From IMG/VR virus record IMGVR_UViG_2574180220_000002: DNA of 9,322 nucleotides. One strand, given 5' to 3'. Source of the DNA: a virus. Lineage: Duplodnaviria; Heunggongvirae; Uroviricota; Caudoviricetes. Shown piece by piece: positions 1 to 9,322 of this stretch (its first letter is position 1; each line of letters starts with the position of its first letter). Position numbers and translations under genes: made by a program. Under the pieces are notes generated by a model. The model searched no databases, was not told the DNA's origin, and saw only the letters and a list, made by a program, of their open reading frames with translations.

Positions 1-861
1 ATGAGATTCAGCACCCCATTACGGTATCCTGGTGGTAAAGGTAAATTAACTAACTATCTATCAAAGATCATTATGATCAATGGTTTAGATGGTTGCGAAT
101 ATGTTGAGCCGTATGCTGGTGGTGCTGGAGTAGCCATTAATTTACTTTTGTCTGGGAAAGCATCACGTATACATTTAAACGATCTTAATAACGCCATTTT
201 TTGTTTTTGGCGGTCAATTCTAGAAGAAACTGATCAGTTTTGCCAATTAATTGAAAAAACCCCTGTGAATATGGATGAATGGTATAAGAATAAAAATATC
301 ATTAGTAATCAATGTGATTATTCCTCATTGGAAGTTGGATTCGCTACGTTTTTCCTTAATCGAACAAATCGGTCAGGAATTTTGTTAGGTGGTGTAATTG
401 GTGGTAAGGAACAAAATGGAAAATGGAAAATAGATGCTCGATTTAATAAGGTTGATTTAGTAAACCGTATTAAGGTAATAGCAGACCGTAAATCTGATAT
501 TTGTATCTATAACCAAGATGCTAAATCATTCTTGCAAAATACTGTAACTGGATTCCCATTAAAAACATTGCTTTATCTTGACCCTCCATATTATGTTAAA
601 GGAAAGGGCTTGTATCAAAACCATTATAGTCATGATGATCATGTCGAAATTGCTAATATTATAAAATCTAATTCAAAGCATCCATGGATTGTATCTTACG
701 ATAATACTGTTGAAATAAACAACATGTACACTGGTCTTAGAAAAATTGAGTACGGTATCAGCTATAGTGCTCAATCTAGGTACCAAGGGCCAGAAGTAAT
801 CTTTTTTTGTGATAGCATTTCTATTCCTGATGATATGGATCCTACAAGAGTCAAATTATAG
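1..861 (+). CDS. DNA adenine (N6) methyltransferase, Dam/D12 family
   Basis: 286-aa ORF with ATG at position 1. Contains N-terminal RYPGGK, EPYAGGAGV (AdoMet-binding motif I-like), FFLNRTNRSG and the catalytic DPPY tetrapeptide (LYLDPPYYV), in the order typical of Dam/DpnM/T4 Dam. Visibly much more AT-rich than the rest of the window (by eye, not computed). The 3' end overlaps the convergent integrase gene by 11 bp. Confidence 0.85.
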   Translation: MRFSTPLRYPGGKGKLTNYLSKIIMINGLDGCEYVEPYAGGAGVAINLLLSGKASRIHLNDLNNAIFCFWRSILEETDQFCQLIEKTPVNMDEWYKNKNIISNQCDYSSLEVGFATFFLNRTNRSGILLGGVIGGKEQNGKWKIDARFNKVDLVNRIKVIADRKSDICIYNQDAKSFLQNTVTGFPLKTLLYLDPPYYVKGKGLYQNHYSHDDHVEIANIIKSNSKHPWIVSYDNTVEINNMYTGLRKIEYGISYSAQSRYQGPEVIFFCDSISIPDDMDPTRVKL

Positions 862-1981
862 CTATTTTACTCCAATCTTTCCCTCGGTCATCATGGTAGC
901 GATCTGTTTGCTGCTGGGTTTTATGGCCCAGTAGCTTTCTAGTATCGATCCCCTGTTCTTTGTACAGACGTTCAGATAAAGACCGTTGTTCATGGAATGT
1001 GGCAGGTGAACCTTTCCCCCAATCAATTCCTGCTAAATCTCTTGCTTTACTGAAATTCATAGTCAAGGTATTGGCTTTAACCTGTGCGCCGCGTTCAGCC
1101 TGTGAAGTAGTACGAAAAAAATGTACAAGGTATGGGCTGACAGCATAGTCACGGCAACGGGCTACTACATCGCGCAAACTCCAGTTAATCGCATTGAGGC
1201 GCAGAGAAAGCGGGATGGCGATTTTGCTCCCGGTTTTTTCCTGGATGACGTGAAGATGATCATCCCAAATATCGCTAAATTTCATACGTGAGATATCACC
1301 TAACCGTTGGCCGGTAACCAGTGCTAACAGCATGGCATTCCCCATATAACGATGACTGGCATCTGCAATATCAAAGATTTTTTGCCACTCTTCAAGATTT
1401 AACCGTTGTCGGGTAATTTTTCTTCTGGGTTGTTTGGTTGCCAGTGCAGGATTATAGCCCGGAGGGACTTCCCCATAGTGTTGTGCCTCCTTGAATACAT
1501 CAATTAGAACGGAGCGGACTACTTGCGCCATCCTCGGTTGCCCGGCAGTGATATACTCGTCAAGCAATTGTGCTATATCCCTTACATCAACTGATGAAAT
1601 TAATTTCATTCCTGCTCGTTCCCTGAGCAAGGATACTGGTTTGGCTTTCTGTTTATAGGTGTTGAGCTTTATATCGCCACTTTCCAGTCTGTCATCCTGG
1701 ATTGCTTGATAGCGATCTAACCAGGTTGACGTTGTGATTGCTTTTCCTTTGCTGGTTGCGATCCTGTCACTGATAGCCAGAATCTGCCGGGTTCTTTGCT
1801 CAGCCAGGCGTGAATTTGCCTCAGTGGCAATAGCAATGGCTTCAGCTTCGTTTGTGCCTAAAGAATGAAACTTCCCGGTCACTGGATGTTTATATCGCCA
1901 ATAGACTTTATTTACTTTTCTGCTATAAAGCGGATACAAGTTCGGGACTGAAACATTATTTTTACGTGGTCTGGCTGCCAT
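851..1981 (-). CDS. int: Tyrosine site-specific integrase, lambda Int family
   Basis: 376-aa ORF starting at ATG (1981..1979). Collinear with lambda Int from the N-terminal arm-binding region to the catalytic C-terminus: TGQRLGDI (Arg), HEQRSLSERLY (His-x-x-Arg), LLGHK...DRYHDD (His and the Tyr nucleophile). Appears intact. Confidence 0.95.
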   Translation of the reverse strand: MAARPRKNNVSVPNLYPLYSRKVNKVYWRYKHPVTGKFHSLGTNEAEAIAIATEANSRLAEQRTRQILAISDRIATSKGKAITTSTWLDRYQAIQDDRLESGDIKLNTYKQKAKPVSLLRERAGMKLISSVDVRDIAQLLDEYITAGQPRMAQVVRSVLIDVFKEAQHYGEVPPGYNPALATKQPRRKITRQRLNLEEWQKIFDIADASHRYMGNAMLLALVTGQRLGDISRMKFSDIWDDHLHVIQEKTGSKIAIPLSLRLNAINWSLRDVVARCRDYAVSPYLVHFFRTTSQAERGAQVKANTLTMNFSKARDLAGIDWGKGSPATFHEQRSLSERLYKEQGIDTRKLLGHKTQQQTDRYHDDRGKDWSKIAII

Positions 1982-2222
1982 TACCTAAAATCCTTTGTAG
2001 AATAATAGAATCACTTTTCTTTATTACTGGAGTAACTAACTCCCCAACTAACTCTGCATCCTCACGCACTCGCCATAGTCGACCTTGTTTCATTGCCGGT
2101 GGACAAAATAAATTCTGCTTAGCATAACGACGTAATGTGGACACACTTGGAGGATTACTCCTAAATTTTTCCGCAGCCCATTCCTCAAGTGTCAGCATTT
2201 GAAGCATTTTTGATAACCTCAT
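1962..2222 (-). CDS. xis: Excisionase (Xis, winged-helix DNA-binding family)
   Basis: Small ORF immediately upstream of int, overlapping its start by 20 nt, the usual int-xis arrangement. Product contains LTLEEWAAEKF...PSVSTLRRYAKQ...GRLWRVREDAE, typical of phage excisionases. Start is ambiguous: ATG at 2222 has no SD, while the in-frame ATG at 2207 (MLQMLTLEEW) has AGG about 9 nt upstream. Confidence 0.7.
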   Translation of the reverse strand: MRLSKMLQMLTLEEWAAEKFRSNPPSVSTLRRYAKQNLFCPPAMKQGRLWRVREDAELVGELVTPVIKKSDSIILQRILGNGSQTT

Positions 2223-2250: not shown

Positions 2251-2799
2251 TTAATTTCGCTGTCTGGATTGTTTATGTATCTTATGCAGCTCTTTAAAGC
2301 GTTCCATAAACATCCCGTAGGCATGGCCCGGTGCCAGTGGAATCACGTTGAACATCTCTGTTGCCGGGATACCTTCCAGCACAGGCCAGAAAGAGCCATC
2401 ATCAAGCCCGAGATCGCGGCGTTCGGTTGCCAGCATGATGAGATCGGCATATTTCACGGGCGTACTCATAACTGGGGGTAACCCGTATTTCTCACGGATT
2501 ACGGCGTCTATTTTTTCTTCCATTTGTTTATAGTCAGGAAGAAGGCGTTTCAGTGGTGCGGGAATGTCCTGGCAATACGCTTCTGTTGCATCATGCATTA
2601 ACGCTTCAAAAGCAAATTCCTGCGGCACCAACTGGCTGCAAAGAACCGCATGTTGGGCGACGCTGTAGAAGTGCGAAAGATGACCGGCAAAGCGACAGAT
2701 ATTTGAAAGGGAAACCGCGATATCGTTAATATCGATGTCGTCTTTATTTATCCTGTCATAATAAAAATGCTTCCCGGAAAAAGTTTTAATAAATGACAT
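2251..2799 (-). CDS. yfdR: HD-domain phosphohydrolase (YfdR/YfbR-like 5'-deoxynucleotidase family)
   Basis: Conserved H...HD metal-binding signature (HLSHFYSVAQHA ... LMHDATEAY). The track ORF begins at GTG 2826; I prefer ATG at 2799 (MSFIKTF), which has GGAG 6 nt upstream, giving about 182 aa. Size and position, downstream of a DUF2303 gene and upstream of xis/int, match YfdR of CPS-53-type prophages (from memory). Confidence 0.8.
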   Translation of the reverse strand: MSFIKTFSGKHFYYDRINKDDIDINDIAVSLSNICRFAGHLSHFYSVAQHAVLCSQLVPQEFAFEALMHDATEAYCQDIPAPLKRLLPDYKQMEEKIDAVIREKYGLPPVMSTPVKYADLIMLATERRDLGLDDGSFWPVLEGIPATEMFNVIPLAPGHAYGMFMERFKELHKIHKQSRQRN

Positions 2800-2890
2800 T
2801 TTGTTCTCCACGTATATGCGCTGCACCGCGCTGAATTTTGGTTAAAGAAAACCCTCGCCATCAGGCGATTATTGAGTTAATTACGTTTCC

Positions 2891-2916
2891 ATAAATGCCC
2901 CCGCAGGGGCATTTGC
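2891..2916 (-). terminator. Stable GC-rich hairpin between the DUF2303 gene and the HD gene; candidate intra-operon intrinsic terminator
   Basis: Perfect 9-bp stem AAATGCCCC (2893-2901) / GGGGCATTT (2906-2914) with 4-nt loop. On the minus strand the hairpin runs into UUUAU. It starts 12 nt after the stop of the upstream gene (2927). Confidence 0.4.
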
Positions 2917-2926
2917 AGTAATGAAA

Positions 2927-3751
2927 TCAGGCGGTGAAAGTACCAATAAGGGTTTCTACTTTGCTGTCTTTGAATTTTTCAACAAGCAGATCACGAAATT
3001 CGTTAGCCATTTCTTCCTGTACTGCTTCCAGCTGAATAATGCGCAGAACCAGTACAGGGCGATCACCAGTGATAATGCTGAGGCGTAATTTAAACGGACG
3101 TTCTTTCAGGCCTTCAAACGGAACGCATTTAAACTCAAATGCTACTGGCATAATGTCTTTGGTTTTCGCTTCGACAGACTCCATCAGAGAGCGTTTGCCG
3201 CTGAAGTCATTGTCTTCAAAATCAGCGGTATGGTTTGCTTCAATCGTGATTTTACGGACCGCCGCAGCCGCTTTTGTTGCCTGAATGGCGTCACCATTAG
3301 CATCAAAGCCCACAAGGTAGTCGGCCCAGTCTTCAATCCATTCTGCCAGTGACTTCTGGGAGTTACGCTCGCCGTTAACAGACAACAGAGCAGAGAACGG
3401 TGCTGTCTTTTTCAGTTTGAGAGTGGCGGTGTTATCTGCGTGACCTGGTTCATCAATAGTACCCAGGTTAAGCACACTGACGGCACGCATATTATCGGCA
3501 TCGATAAAGCAGCGGGTGCCTTCATCTGCAAGATCTTTAGAATAACGGGTAAAGTCATCGATGCTGGCAGTGGAAAGTGCACCACGGAAACGGAAGCGAT
3601 TTAAATTAAATTTTTCCAGATCATGAATGCGGAAATTCTCAGGCAATGCCACAGCATCGGCACCAATCTTACTGATAATTTCATTAACACCCTGAGCAGA
3701 AATAAGGGCATGGATTTGATTAATTGCGGTTGCGTCTAAGTTCTGAGACAT
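2927..3751 (-). CDS. yfdQ: DUF2303-family phage protein (YfdQ-like), function unknown
   Basis: 274-aa ORF with ATG at 3751 and GAGGA 6 nt upstream. Coding-like composition. Length and position (between the 120-aa gene and the HD gene) match YfdQ of CPS-53-type prophages, recalled from memory and not verified. Confidence 0.75.
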
Positions 3752-4179: not shown

Positions 4180-4227
4180 TTTGCTGCTCCCCATCATATC
4201 GACCCTGCAAGGTCGGTTGGTTTCTCC

Positions 4228-4327
4228 ACAAAACAGAGAAGAACACCTGCGGTGGCAGCCGCCCGGATGGATTGGGTTATGAGCCCGTCGTCCGGTGATG
4301 CTCTTCTCTGTTTTGTAAAAAGAGCGG
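4228..4327 (-). promoter_or_regulatory. boxA-like motif followed by a long structured hairpin in the leader of the early-left operon (candidate nut/put-type antitermination element or structured 5' UTR)
   Basis: Minus strand reads CGCTCTTTTTACA (4326->4314), resembling boxA (lambda nut CGCTCTTA; rrn TGCTCTTTAACA). It is followed by a perfect 15-bp inverted repeat, ACAAAACAGAGAAGA (4228-4242) / TCTTCTCTGTTTTGT (4302-4316), enclosing 59 nt with nested stems (CCGGA 4263-4267 / TCCGG 4291-4295; GCGG 4249-4252 / CCGC 4259-4262). Lies about 50 nt upstream of the 120-aa gene start. Confidence 0.35.
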
Positions 4328-4901: not shown

Positions 4902-5594
4902 TTAATTGTGTCGCTTAAGGGTTTGTGACTGGCTGATTAAGACCTTTCCAAAGACCATAAACCGGTGTTCATTTTCGCTGGTAATTCCCCATTCACGGTA
5001 AATCTGGTTATCAGAAATCACCAGTAGTTTGTCAGGTATCATTTGCAGTCGTTTGACATAAATTTTATCATCAAAACCAAATACATAGATACCATCTCCA
5101 TCAAACTGATTGATACTGACATCAACGAAGATGAGATCTCCTGGCTCAATGGTTGGACACATACTGTCCCCACGAACGTTGATAACTTTAATGTGATTGG
5201 CTGGCCGTCCGCCAAACATCGATACAGCATTATCAGTTCTGTATTCAATGGCATGAATCACATCAATGACATCACCGCCCTGGATAAGGCCATTTCCCGC
5301 ACTGGCACTGACATCCAGCATTTCAATACGGAATACATCCTTCACCTGCGCAACATCCTCACTAATACTGTTTTTACATACAGTATTACTTTTGACGTCT
5401 GAGGTAAAGAGATCAGCAATATCAACACCTAAGCTCCTGGCAATATTACTCAGGGCTTGTTCAGTGAATTGTTTCTGCTTACCTGTTTCCAGGCGTGAGA
5501 TATTCGCCGCATCCACTCCTATTGCTTCAGCGAGATCGGCGATTTTCATGTTCTTCGCCTGGCGAAGTTGTCTGACTCGGTTTCCTATGTTCAT
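4902..5594 (-). CDS. cI: CI-type phage repressor (N-terminal XRE HTH, C-terminal S24 LexA-like autopeptidase)
   Basis: 230 aa. HTH: RVRQLRQAKNMKIADLAEAIGVDAANISRLETGK. Candidate Ala-Gly cleavage site in SASAGNG. S24 catalytic Ser in GDSMCP and Lys in YVKRL. Divergent from a cro-like gene across an operator-rich 97-bp region. Confidence 0.9.
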   Translation of the reverse strand: MNIGNRVRQLRQAKNMKIADLAEAIGVDAANISRLETGKQKQFTEQALSNIARSLGVDIADLFTSDVKSNTVCKNSISEDVAQVKDVFRIEMLDVSASAGNGLIQGGDVIDVIHAIEYRTDNAVSMFGGRPANHIKVINVRGDSMCPTIEPGDLIFVDVSINQFDGDGIYVFGFDDKIYVKRLQMIPDKLLVISDNQIYREWGITSENEHRFMVFGKVLISQSQTLKRHN

Positions 5595-5691: not shown

Positions 5692-5916
5692 ATGCAATCA
5701 CCATTACGGAATGTGCGTAAGGCGCACGGATTTACTTTGCAGCATGTTGCTGCTGGCGTTCAGGTCAATCCAGCGACGCTGAGTCGTATTGAAAGACTGG
5801 AACAAATTCCATCTATCGATCTTGCAGAACGTCTGGCCAATTTTTTTAAGGATGAAATCAGCGAAATGCAGATTCTTTATCGTATTTCAGGGATGCTCGT
5901 GCCGAACTGGGTATAA
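5692..5916 (+). CDS. cro: Cro-like XRE-family HTH regulator
   Basis: 74-aa ORF with GGAGG SD. HTH: LRNVRKAHGFTLQHVAAGVQVNPATLSRIE. Divergent from the cI-like gene. The C-terminal tail (from about residue 58) overlaps an out-of-frame HTH-coding segment, so the true C-terminus is uncertain. Confidence 0.7.
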   Translation: MQSPLRNVRKAHGFTLQHVAAGVQVNPATLSRIERLEQIPSIDLAERLANFFKDEISEMQILYRISGMLVPNWV

Positions 5917-5954: not shown

Positions 5955-8686
<2,732 letters not shown>

Positions 8687-8687
<1 letters not shown>

Positions 8688-9322
8688 TGGAATTCAGAAT
8701 GAGTGAACAACCACGGACCATAAAAATTTATAATCTGCTGGCCGGAACTAATGAATTTATTGGTGAAGGTGACGCATATATTCCGCCTCATACAGGTCTG
8801 CCAGCAAACAGTACCTATATTGCACCGCCAGATATTCCGGCTGGCTTCGTGGCTGTTTTCAACAGTGATGAGTCATCGTGGCATCTCGTTGAAGATCATC
8901 GGGGTAAAACGGTTTATGACGTGGCTTCCGGCGACGCGTTATTTATTTCTGAACTCGGCTCATTACCGGAAAATGTTACCTGGTTATCGCCGGAAGGGGA
9001 GTTTCAGAAGTGGAACGGCACAGCCTGGGTGAAAGATGCAGAAGCAGAAAAACTGTTCCGGATCCGGGAGGCGGAAGAAACAAAAAACAGCCTGATGCAG
9101 GTAGCCAGTGAGCATATTGCGCCACTTCAGGATGCTGTAGATCTGGAAATCGCAACGGAGGAAGAAACCTCATTGCTGGAAGCCTGGAAAAAGTATCGGG
9201 TGTTGCTGAACCGTGTTGATACATCAACTGCACCTGATATTGAGTGGCCTGCAACCCCTGTTATGGATAATCGTTCCTGTTGTAGCCACAGTCACGTCAT
9301 ATACAAGAACTTGCTGGCCTAA
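8687..9322 (+). CDS. tfa: Tail fibre assembly protein (Tfa family chaperone)
   Basis: 211 aa, starting [54 protein letters not shown]..., the conserved Tfa N-terminus of lambdoid/Rac/e14-type prophages. Translationally coupled to stf through the ATAATGG overlap. The last ~17 residues ([18 protein letters not shown]) look like a non-canonical extension. Confidence 0.88.

What the first reader, a model, noticed from the sequence alone, without database searches (positions are those of the whole stretch)
2891..2916. Strong hairpin between the DUF2303 and HD genes inside the leftward operon
A perfect 9-bp GC-rich stem lies 12 nt after the DUF2303 stop and is followed by a U-rich stretch on the coding (minus) strand. 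If it terminates, HD, xis and int expression would depend on antitermination or on a separate promoter, as int and xis expression is regulated in lambda. It could instead be an RNase III or mRNA-stability element like lambda sib. As DNA the palindrome could also be a protein binding site.
Basis: seen in the sequence. Interest (0 to 1): 0.35.

Follow-up and report, generated by a model that had tools for sequence, protein, structure and literature searches.

The report
Leaky terminator-like hairpin after yfdQ
The hairpin is real and is a conserved RNA stem-loop at the end of the prophage gene yfdQ, most likely a weak transcription terminator or RNA-end protector, which is an ordinary kind of element and not a strict gate on excision genes.

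Summary
The claimed U-rich run is weak: the sense RNA reads GGGGC-AUUUAUGG, and three of those U's are already paired in the stem.

The same hairpin sits in E. coli K-12 CPS-53 between yfdQ and yfdR, and in SfV, Stx2c-converting and mEp460-type phages. Salmonella, Klebsiella and Citrobacter relatives keep it with compensatory base changes and loops of different length. G.U wobbles and UNCG/GNRA tetraloops place it on the gene-strand RNA, not on the DNA or the antisense strand.

By sequence it is only a marginal intrinsic terminator (d-score +7.8 against about +35 for a classic one). In published K-12 work, PBAD driving the native yfdQRST cluster through the identical hairpin yields all four proteins, so read-through is substantial.

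Best reading: a leaky intercistronic terminator and/or 3'-end protective stem-loop. The sib/RNase III, operator and strict-antitermination readings are not supported.

It is an ordinary element: a new member of a known kind, and one GenBank phage record already annotates it as a terminator. The conserved hairpins in the adjacent yfdR leader are a more interesting side lead.

The parts
2906..2914 (-). HP1 5' arm (sense RNA AAAUGCCCC)
   Evidence: Sequence read directly. Pairs perfectly with 2893-2901.
2902..2905 (-). HP1 loop, UGCG on the sense RNA (a UNCG-type tetraloop closed by C-G)
   Evidence: Variants are UACG (SfII type) and UGCU. The antisense loop CGCA belongs to no stable tetraloop class.
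2893..2901 (-). HP1 3' arm (sense RNA GGGGCAUUU)
2885..2892 (-). Tail after HP1 (AUGGAAAC). If the hairpin terminates, 3' ends are expected at about 2894-2888.
   Evidence: AUUUAU is invariant in the E. coli, Salmonella and Klebsiella types. The tail score is weak.
2927..3751 (-). DUF2303 / YfdQ-family gene, whose 3' end HP1 follows
   Evidence: Pfam PF10065, E 8.5e-92; phrog_210.
2855..2868 (-). HP2 in the yfdR leader (UCGCC-UGAU-GGCGA, followed by GGG and a pyrimidine-rich run)
   Evidence: The middle pair is G-C in 10, G.U in 14 and A-U in 10 of 35 sequences. It is kept in Serratia-type loci that have a different upstream gene.
2818..2831 (-). HP3 in the yfdR leader (GCGC-GGUGCA-GCGC; GGUGCAG is conserved)
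   Evidence: C-G changes to U-A or A-U. It stays with the HD gene when HP1 and HP2 are absent (L309, L322, L342).
2251..2799 (-). YfdR-type HD 5'-deoxynucleotidase gene downstream of HP1 (SD GGAG at 2809-2806)
   Evidence: phrog_318, E 1.6e-108; Pfam YfbR-like.
1962..2222 (-). Excisionase gene (downstream context)
   Evidence: Pfam PF07825 and phrog_629.
851..1981 (-). Lambda-type integrase gene (downstream context)
   Evidence: Pfam PF09003 and PF00589.

Best explanation
HP1 is a conserved stem-loop in the leftward (gene-strand) transcript, placed just beyond the reach of a ribosome stopping at the yfdQ stop codon. It most likely acts as a weak, leaky factor-independent terminator. A fraction of polymerases would stop in the AUUUAU tail, and the hairpin would then protect the 3' end of the resulting yfdP-yfdQ RNA from 3'-5' exonucleases. 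The upstream genes would thus be expressed more than yfdR-xis-int, while most polymerases read through.

Shown: the structure, its position, its conservation with covariation, its RNA strand, and its marginal terminator score.
Taken from the literature: substantial read-through of the identical hairpin in K-12.
Inferred: actual termination and the protection of the 3' end.
For: Anatomy: a G-C-rich 9-bp stem with a C(UGCG)G tetraloop, 12 nt after the stop codon.

Conservation: the hairpin is identical in K-12 CPS-53 between yfdQ and yfdR. About 3000 of 5426 complete E. coli genomes hold the region, as do 57 phage records.

Covariation: at least 9 stem sequence types fit AAAU-N-CCC...GGG-N'-AUUU. 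G-C changes to C-G or A-U, and A-U changes to U-A. 94.4% of cells pair (0/500 shuffles reach this), and slid controls pair at 65% or less.

Strand: there are 14 G.U cells on the sense strand against 5 A.C cells, and 3 of those 5 lie in the SfII/L239 deletion junction. Sense folds are more stable than antisense folds in nearly all variants. The loops stay within UNCG (UGCG, UACG) or GNRA (GCAA, GCGA, GUAA) on the sense strand only.

Terminator features: AUUUAU is invariant in the E. coli, Salmonella and Klebsiella types, and the best d-score is +7.8. Non-homologous hairpins occupy the same place after DUF2303 genes in distant phages. The one in VvAW1 is a canonical terminator (GCCGGGC + UUUUGUU, d +26). 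Serratia-type loci upstream of the HD gene have a covarying hairpin followed by AUUUUUAAAA or UUCUUAAAAC.

Annotation: phage Ayreon (MF807953.1) annotates this hairpin as 'terminator'.

Leakiness: PBAD-driven native yfdQRST yields all four proteins (PMC4776307).

A weak hint of polarity: in RS218 delta-sRNA-17, yfdP has 47 reads and yfdR 8.5 (PMC7719688).
Against: The U-tract is poor (4 U in 8, interrupted by A), and all its U's can pair with the upstream AAAU.

Citrobacter-type relatives keep the stem through an A-U to U-A compensatory change but have the tail AAUUAGUG (T 0.71, d -39). P. stutzeri phage pAN has a hairpin with no U run. This suggests that the selected feature may be stem stability rather than the U-tract.

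The authors of the SfV genome annotated two other terminators in this operon but not this one.

The K-12 Term-seq supplement that was searched lists no 3' end here. This is uninformative, because Rho stops transcription upstream, inside yfdP.

No direct 3'-end or termination measurement was available.
Confidence: 0.45

Rival explanations
1. HP1 is purely a decay barrier. RNAP does not stop at it. The polycistronic RNA is cut in the A/U-rich single-stranded spacer downstream (AUGGAAACGUAAUUAACUCAAUAAU), or it ends further on, and 3'-5' exonucleases trim back to the hairpin. This stabilises the yfdP-yfdQ segment relative to yfdR-xis-int.
For: In the Citrobacter type the stem is kept by compensatory changes, even in its A/U part, while the U run is lost. 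The pAN hairpin has no U-tract. The terminator score is weak. All four YfdQRST proteins are made from a single upstream promoter. Published E. coli work shows that stable stem-loops without U runs define and protect 3' ends, and that RNA structures shape decay within operons (PMC6061677; PMC5927463; PMC13613805).
Against: AUUUAU is strictly conserved in three clades. There is no C-rich, G-poor rut-like stretch right after HP1 (C/G is 0.8-0.9 across the intergenic region). This removes the Rho-linked version of the model. Nothing distinguishes this rival experimentally from leaky termination.
Confidence: 0.25
2. HP1 is the 5' module of a structured cis-regulatory leader (HP1, HP2, a mini-hairpin and HP3) that controls the translation or stability of yfdR and the downstream xis and int.
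For: The whole 127-nt spacer is conserved at about the level of the coding sequence. The sense fold has z -2.4 and the antisense fold -1.6. HP2 and HP3 covary. In some clades the HP1-type hairpin stays with the HD gene when the upstream gene differs (L207, L209, L214, L224). In SfII-type deletions the hairpin core is kept (16 of 120 contigs).
Against: HP1 also stays with yfdQ when the downstream gene is replaced (L160). HP3 alone stays with the HD gene in L309, L322 and L342, so the modules separate. A putative alternative pairing of the tail is not supported: the lower-stem extension is no better than with shuffled flanks. RNAalifold on the broader leader set found almost nothing, although the alignment was poor. 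No Rfam family matches.
Confidence: 0.1
3. HP1 is a full terminator paired with a restart promoter. It ends the yfdP-yfdQ unit, and a weak or activator-dependent promoter just after it (TTTATG-16-AATAAT) starts the yfdR-xis-int unit, with HP2 at the 5' end of that RNA.
For: The best sigma-70-like match is positionally conserved: E. coli has TTTATG-16-AATAAT and Salmonella has TTTATT-16-AATTAT.
Against: The match is only 7-8 of 12, below the scan threshold, and the scan found no minus-strand promoter here. There is no CII-type TTGC-N6-TTGC. The PBAD result needs no internal promoter.
Confidence: 0.06
4. HP1 is an RNase III processing site, like lambda sib or the T7 R sites.
For: It is an intercistronic hairpin. 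RNAfold can extend it to 14-18 bp using the flanks.
Against: The core stem is only 9-12 bp. The flank extension is not better than with shuffled flanks in 9 types (fractions 0.05-0.81, and 0.81 for the E. coli type). Its position, upstream of int, is the opposite of sib.
Confidence: 0.04
5. HP1 acts on the other strand or as DNA: either as a terminator for antisense or read-in transcription, or as a palindromic protein-binding site.
For: A perfect palindrome looks the same on both strands. A-tract and T-tract flanks are typical of bidirectional terminators.
Against: The antisense d-score is -29. There are 14 sense G.U wobbles, which would be A.C mismatches on the antisense strand. The tetraloop classes hold only on the sense strand. 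The arms covary and the spacer varies from 3 to 7 nt, which is unlike an operator.
Confidence: 0.05

Closest known systems
Intrinsic terminators inside lambdoid early-left (pL) operons, e.g. lambda tL2/tL3 (recalled from knowledge, not tested here)
   Same: It is a G-C-rich stem-loop on the sense transcript between early-left genes upstream of xis and int. It could reduce expression of the distal genes.
   Different: The U-tract is much weaker. There is evidence of substantial read-through by unmodified RNAP in K-12. No N-type antiterminator or nut site was recognised in this element.
Protective 3' stem-loops at the ends of Rho-dependent or processed transcripts in E. coli (Dar & Sorek 2018, PMC6061677)
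   Same: It is a stable hairpin without a proper U run, immediately after a stop codon, in a prophage region (CPS-53) that is known to be heavily controlled by Rho.
   Different: No rut-like C-rich stretch follows it. The short AUUUAU tail is conserved.
The predicted 'terminator' feature in Escherichia phage Ayreon, MF807953.1, 31002-31041
   Same: It is the same hairpin at the same locus, in a 301-nt stretch that is 98% identical.
   Different: That feature is a software or curator prediction with no experimental support. The SfV and SfII records do not annotate it.
Lambda sib retroregulator
   Same: It is a phage hairpin that could influence int expression after transcription.
   Different: sib is a long RNase III substrate downstream of int and across att. 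HP1 is a 9-bp hairpin three genes upstream of int.

Membership tests
Intrinsic (Rho-independent) terminator | G-C-rich stem of about 5-14 bp with a short loop on the transcribed strand | tested here: met
   The stem is 9 bp with 5 G-C pairs and loop UGCG; dG is -15.0 kcal/mol.
Intrinsic (Rho-independent) terminator | Run of U residues immediately 3' of the stem | tested here: inconclusive
   The tail is AUUUAUGG. The best tail score is 2.84 and the best d-score is +7.8. A trp-attenuator control, recalled from memory, gave a tail score of 4.7-5.1 and a d-score of about +35. The run is lost in Citrobacter-type relatives.
Intrinsic (Rho-independent) terminator | Transcripts end at the site and downstream transcription drops | not testable with these tools
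   Only indirect evidence exists. All four YfdQRST proteins are made from PBAD through the identical hairpin, which means read-through. yfdP has 47 reads and yfdR 8.5 in one RNA-seq table.
Lambda sib / RNase III processing hairpin | Long, about 20 bp, often interrupted double-stranded stem | tested here: not met
   The core is 9-12 bp, and the flank extension is no better than with shuffled flanks.
Lambda sib / RNase III processing hairpin | Located downstream of int, so that integration separates it from int | tested here: not met
   It lies between yfdQ and yfdR, upstream of xis and int.
N-utilisation (nut) site | boxA (CGCUCUUA-like) followed by a boxB hairpin with a GAAAA-type pentaloop, plus an N gene | tested here: not met
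   The loop is UGCG. A boxA-like UUUUCUUUAACC lies after HP2, but only in the window's variant and not in K-12 or Salmonella. No N-like ORF was found.
STnc100 sRNA (Rfam RF02076) | Score at or above the Rfam gathering threshold (47 bits) | tested here: not met
   The score is 22.7 bits at 2756-2935(-). The model's 3' hairpin falls inside the yfdR coding sequence.
Dispersed palindromic repeat (REP-like) | Many copies in different intergenic contexts | tested here: not met
   There is one copy in the window. All 120 IMG/VR stretches with the core lie in the same locus: of 120, 101 have DUF2303 upstream and the HD gene downstream, 16 are the SfII-type deletion, and 3 are truncated.
Protein-binding DNA palindrome (operator) | Conserved half-site sequence and fixed spacing | tested here: not met
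   The half-sites covary, the spacer is 3-7 nt, and wobble variants are compatible only with RNA pairing.

The most novel reading that the evidence does not exclude
HP1 and the three conserved downstream hairpins (HP2, a GG..CC mini-hairpin, and HP3 with the invariant GGUGCAG loop) form an undescribed cis-regulatory leader RNA. It would set the expression of the DnaA-binding 5'-deoxynucleotidase YfdR, and with it xis and int, in a large family of enterobacterial prophages that includes K-12 CPS-53. HP1 would be its transcription-attenuating module.
Probability: 0.1. Interest if true: 0.5.

Novelty: new member of a known kind. Interest (0 to 1): 0.17.

Why it matters
If HP1 attenuates transcription or stabilises the upstream RNA, it sets the ratio between yfdP/yfdQ and yfdR-xis-int. 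These are widespread prophage genes, present in about 55% of complete E. coli genomes. This is a modest refinement of how early-left operons are tuned in lambdoid prophages that lack N. The evidence indicates that HP1 is not the main barrier to excision-gene expression. In K-12 that barrier appears to be Rho-dependent termination upstream, inside yfdP. The element is ordinary, and its practical value is mainly for annotating transcription units in these prophages.

Tried and rejected
(1) Rfam. The only hit over the hairpin is a sub-threshold STnc100 match (22.7 bits against a threshold of 47). Its 3' half lies inside the yfdR coding sequence, so I rejected it. A better sub-threshold STnc100 hit (39.5 bits) lies elsewhere in SfII. 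The Pas/STnc100 preprint places those sRNAs near the Q and lysis genes, not here.

(2) Lower-stem extension (UUCAU pairing with AUGGA), and a possible switch against the P2 helix. The extension is no better than with shuffled flanks.

(3) A Rho-linked protective hairpin. There is no rut-like C>G stretch downstream.

(4) An internal promoter. Nothing reaches 9 of 12 matches, and there is no CII box near xis.

(5) K-12 3'-end data. The Adams 2021 supplement lists only a Rho-dependent site inside yfdP. The Dar & Sorek supplements are not held or hold no entry. Menouni 2013 is not held.

(6) RNAalifold on a broader leader alignment failed because MAFFT put the arms out of register.

(7) An alignment-based search for distant DUF2303 loci returned the same 99%-identical set. 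Diversity came instead from tblastn against phages and from HD-gene queries.

Full report
OBSERVATION

The window's + strand reads AAATGCCCC (2893-2901), CGCA (2902-2905), GGGGCATTT (2906-2914). This is a perfect 9-bp inverted repeat with a 4-nt loop. All neighbouring genes are on the minus strand:
- a YfdP-like gene (about 4178-3817)
- DUF2303/YfdQ (3751-2927; PF10065, E 8.5e-92)
- a YfdR-type HD 5'-deoxynucleotidase (2799-2251; phrog_318, E 1.6e-108)
- excisionase (2222-1962)
- integrase (1981-851)

On that strand the RNA is AAAUGCCCC-UGCG-GGGGCAUUU (dG -15.0 kcal/mol).

The 'U-rich stretch' is overstated. The bases after the full stem are AUGGAAACGU. Only by trimming the stem to its G-C core does one obtain AUUUAUGG.

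A perfect stem of at least 9 bp is not rare by chance: dinucleotide shuffles give 0.29 per window. The case for the hairpin therefore rests on position and conservation.

WHERE ELSE IT OCCURS

The 301 bases around the hairpin match 57 phage records. These include SfV, SfIV, Stx2c- and Stx2a-converting phages, mEp460 and Ayreon. The 141-nt spacer region is present in about 3000 of 5426 complete E. coli genomes.

E. coli K-12 MG1655 carries the identical hairpin between yfdQ and yfdR of cryptic prophage CPS-53/KplE1, at NC_000913.3 2474869-2474890.

A pattern scan of IMG/VR with the hairpin core plus tail returned 120 stretches:
- 101 have DUF2303 upstream and the HD gene downstream.
- 16 are the SfII-type arrangement.
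- 3 are truncated.
None is in any other context. HP1 is therefore a locus-specific element and not a dispersed repeat.

In the SfII type, yfdP and yfdQ are deleted. The junction lies inside the 5' arm of HP1, and the G-C core and tail remain. Conversely, in L160 the homology ends right after HP1 and the HD gene is replaced. The hairpin thus marks a module boundary and survives on either side of it.

STRUCTURE IS CONSERVED, AND ON THE SENSE RNA

Relatives whose DUF2303 proteins are only about 57% identical keep a hairpin at the same place with different stems:
- Salmonella ST64B and 118970_sal3, Klebsiella Kp4866-6 and phage Eeyore: AAAUCCCCG-GCGCCG-CGGGGAUUU
- Citrobacter phiNP: UAAUUGCCCUG...CGGGGCAAUUA

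With further IMG/VR loci found through HD-gene homologues, at least nine stem types fit AAAU-N-CCC...GGG-N'-AUUU.

On a 26-variant alignment (A4), 94.4% of stem cells pair against 83.5% in shuffles (0/500). The covariation score is 0.331 against 0.131 (0/500). Four of nine pairs show changes on both sides. Sliding the 3' partners by 1-3 columns drops pairing to 65% or less.

The non-Watson-Crick cells are 14 G.U on the gene strand against 5 A.C, and three of those five lie in the SfII/L239 junction. Sense folds are more stable than antisense folds in almost every variant.

Loop variants stay within stable tetraloop classes only on the sense strand. The E. coli type has UGCG or UACG (UNCG class). 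The L202 clade has GCAA, GCGA or GUAA (GNRA class).

Covarying arms, loops of 3-7 nt and strand-specific wobbles argue against both a protein-binding DNA palindrome and an antisense-strand function.

IS IT A TERMINATOR?

By the d'Aubenton-Carafa score the best parse (UGCCCC...GGGGCA plus UUUAUGG) gives d = +7.8 with a tail score of 2.84. Other parses and the antisense strand are negative. A trp-attenuator sequence recalled from memory scores about +35, and the canonical hairpin after the DUF2303 gene of Vibrio phage VvAW1 scores +26.

The window-wide scan did not list HP1 as terminator-like. It listed the weaker HP2 (UCGCC-UGAU-GGCGA followed by GGGUUUUCUU).

Evidence for some terminator function:
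- AUUUAU is invariant across the E. coli, Salmonella and Klebsiella types.
- Serratia-type loci have a different, covarying hairpin followed by AUUUUUAAAA or UUCUUAAAAC.
- Phage Ayreon's GenBank record annotates this hairpin as a terminator.

Evidence against strong termination:
- Citrobacter-type relatives preserve pairing even in the A/U part through an A-U to U-A change, but lose the U run.
- P. stutzeri phage pAN has a hairpin with no U-tract.
- The SfV record marks two other putative terminators in this operon but not this one.

The most direct evidence comes from Noguchi and Katayama (PMC4776307). They cloned the native K-12 yfdQ-yfdT cluster, starting at the yfdQ Shine-Dalgarno sequence, under PBAD. 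[quoted passage not shown] Unmodified RNAP therefore reads through the identical hairpin to a large extent.

One RNA-seq table gives yfdP 47 reads against yfdR 8.5 when the prophage is derepressed (PMC7719688). This is a faint hint of polarity.

The Adams et al. supplement places a Rho-dependent site inside yfdP (2473888) and lists nothing at the hairpin. That gap is uninformative, because little transcription reaches yfdQ in untreated K-12.

ALTERNATIVES

A pure decay barrier is the main rival. Stable stem-loops without U runs define and protect RNA 3' ends in E. coli (PMC6061677; PMC13613805), and RNA structures shape decay within operons (PMC5927463). No C-rich rut-like stretch follows HP1, so a Rho-coupled version is not favoured.

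RNase III (a sib-like role) is unlikely. The core is 9-12 bp, and the apparent lower-stem extension is no better than with shuffled flanks. The location is also the opposite of sib.

A restart promoter after HP1 reaches only 7-8 of 12 matches. No CII-type box lies near xis.

No N-like antiterminator was found in the window or in SfV.

CONTEXT: THE yfdR LEADER

The whole 127-nt spacer is conserved. Its sense fold has z -2.4 and its antisense fold z -1.6.

RNAalifold on 35 sequences recovers four elements:
- HP1.
- HP2, whose middle pair is G-C in 10, G.U in 14 and A-U in 10 sequences.
- A helix pairing GGAA.C, just after HP1, with G.UUYC, just after HP2.
- HP3, a short stem that covaries (C-G to U-A or A-U) around a conserved GGUGCAG.

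HP2 and the following GGG-pyrimidine-ACC-AAAA motif persist upstream of HD genes in Serratia-type loci that have a different upstream gene. HP3 alone persists in other loci. The spacer is therefore modular: HP1 belongs to the gene boundary, and HP2 and HP3 belong to the yfdR leader. Whether the leader is regulatory is untested. This is the most novel reading left open.

VERDICT

HP1 is a real, conserved, sense-strand RNA hairpin at the 3' boundary of yfdQ. It is best explained as a leaky intrinsic terminator and/or a 3'-end protective stem-loop. It is an ordinary kind of element, already predicted as a terminator in one phage record, and it does not act as a strict gate on HD, xis and int expression.

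Noticed in passing
window 5363-5388 (core 5366-5385): TACTGTTTTTACATACAGTA has perfect LexA/SOS-box half-sites (TACTGT-N8-ACAGTA) within a 9-bp perfect palindrome. It lies inside the cI-like repressor ORF (4902-5594, minus; HTH plus S24 peptidase). The expected count by chance is 0.03. The same sequence is present in the repressor genes of mEp460, phiSTEC1575-Stx2k and the PhiR40/47/55/63 phages.
   Followed up: partly
window 2800-2880 (minus strand): The yfdR (HD 5'-deoxynucleotidase) leader holds conserved, covarying hairpins: HP2, a GG..CC mini-hairpin, and HP3 with the invariant loop GGUGCAG. They travel with the HD gene even where the upstream gene differs (Serratia-type and other IMG/VR loci). 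This is a candidate undescribed cis-regulatory leader.
   Followed up: partly
window 9030-9228 (+): A full-length Rfam IS009 (RF02111) match of 229.5 bits (gathering threshold 117) lies inside the tail-fibre-assembly ORF 8687-9322.
   Followed up: no
window 1-861 and 5955-9322: The element looks like a degraded or mosaic prophage. cro (5692-5916) is followed directly by a C-terminal DNA-methylase fragment (5955-6443), a J-like tail-tip fragment (6448-7065), a tail fibre gene (7026-8687) and a tail-fibre assembly gene. Another methylase ORF segment (1-861, +) abuts int. No complete E. coli RefSeq genome covers more than 62% of the window in one place.
   Followed up: partly
L002 (Shigella phage SfII) 1596-1775; window 4198-4276 and 2893-2914: SfII-type phages lack yfdP and yfdQ. 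The deletion joins the region just upstream of a small hairpin in the yfdP leader (CGACC-UUGCAG-GGUCG, window about 4217-4198) to the 5' arm of HP1, and keeps HP1's G-C core. This arrangement is found in 16 of 120 IMG/VR contigs that carry the hairpin core.
   Followed up: partly
L002 1811-2026 (-): A sub-threshold STnc100 (RF02076) match of 39.5 bits (E 8.5e-6) lies in the SfII early-left region, about 100-300 nt upstream of the HP1 position. The window has different sequence at the corresponding place.
   Followed up: no
L158 (IMGVR_UViG_3300045988_127337), about 115 nt after the yfdQ stop: An IS1 end (GGTAATGACTCCAACTTATTGATAGTG...) is inserted right after HP3. It separates the leader from yfdR in one contig.
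   Followed up: no
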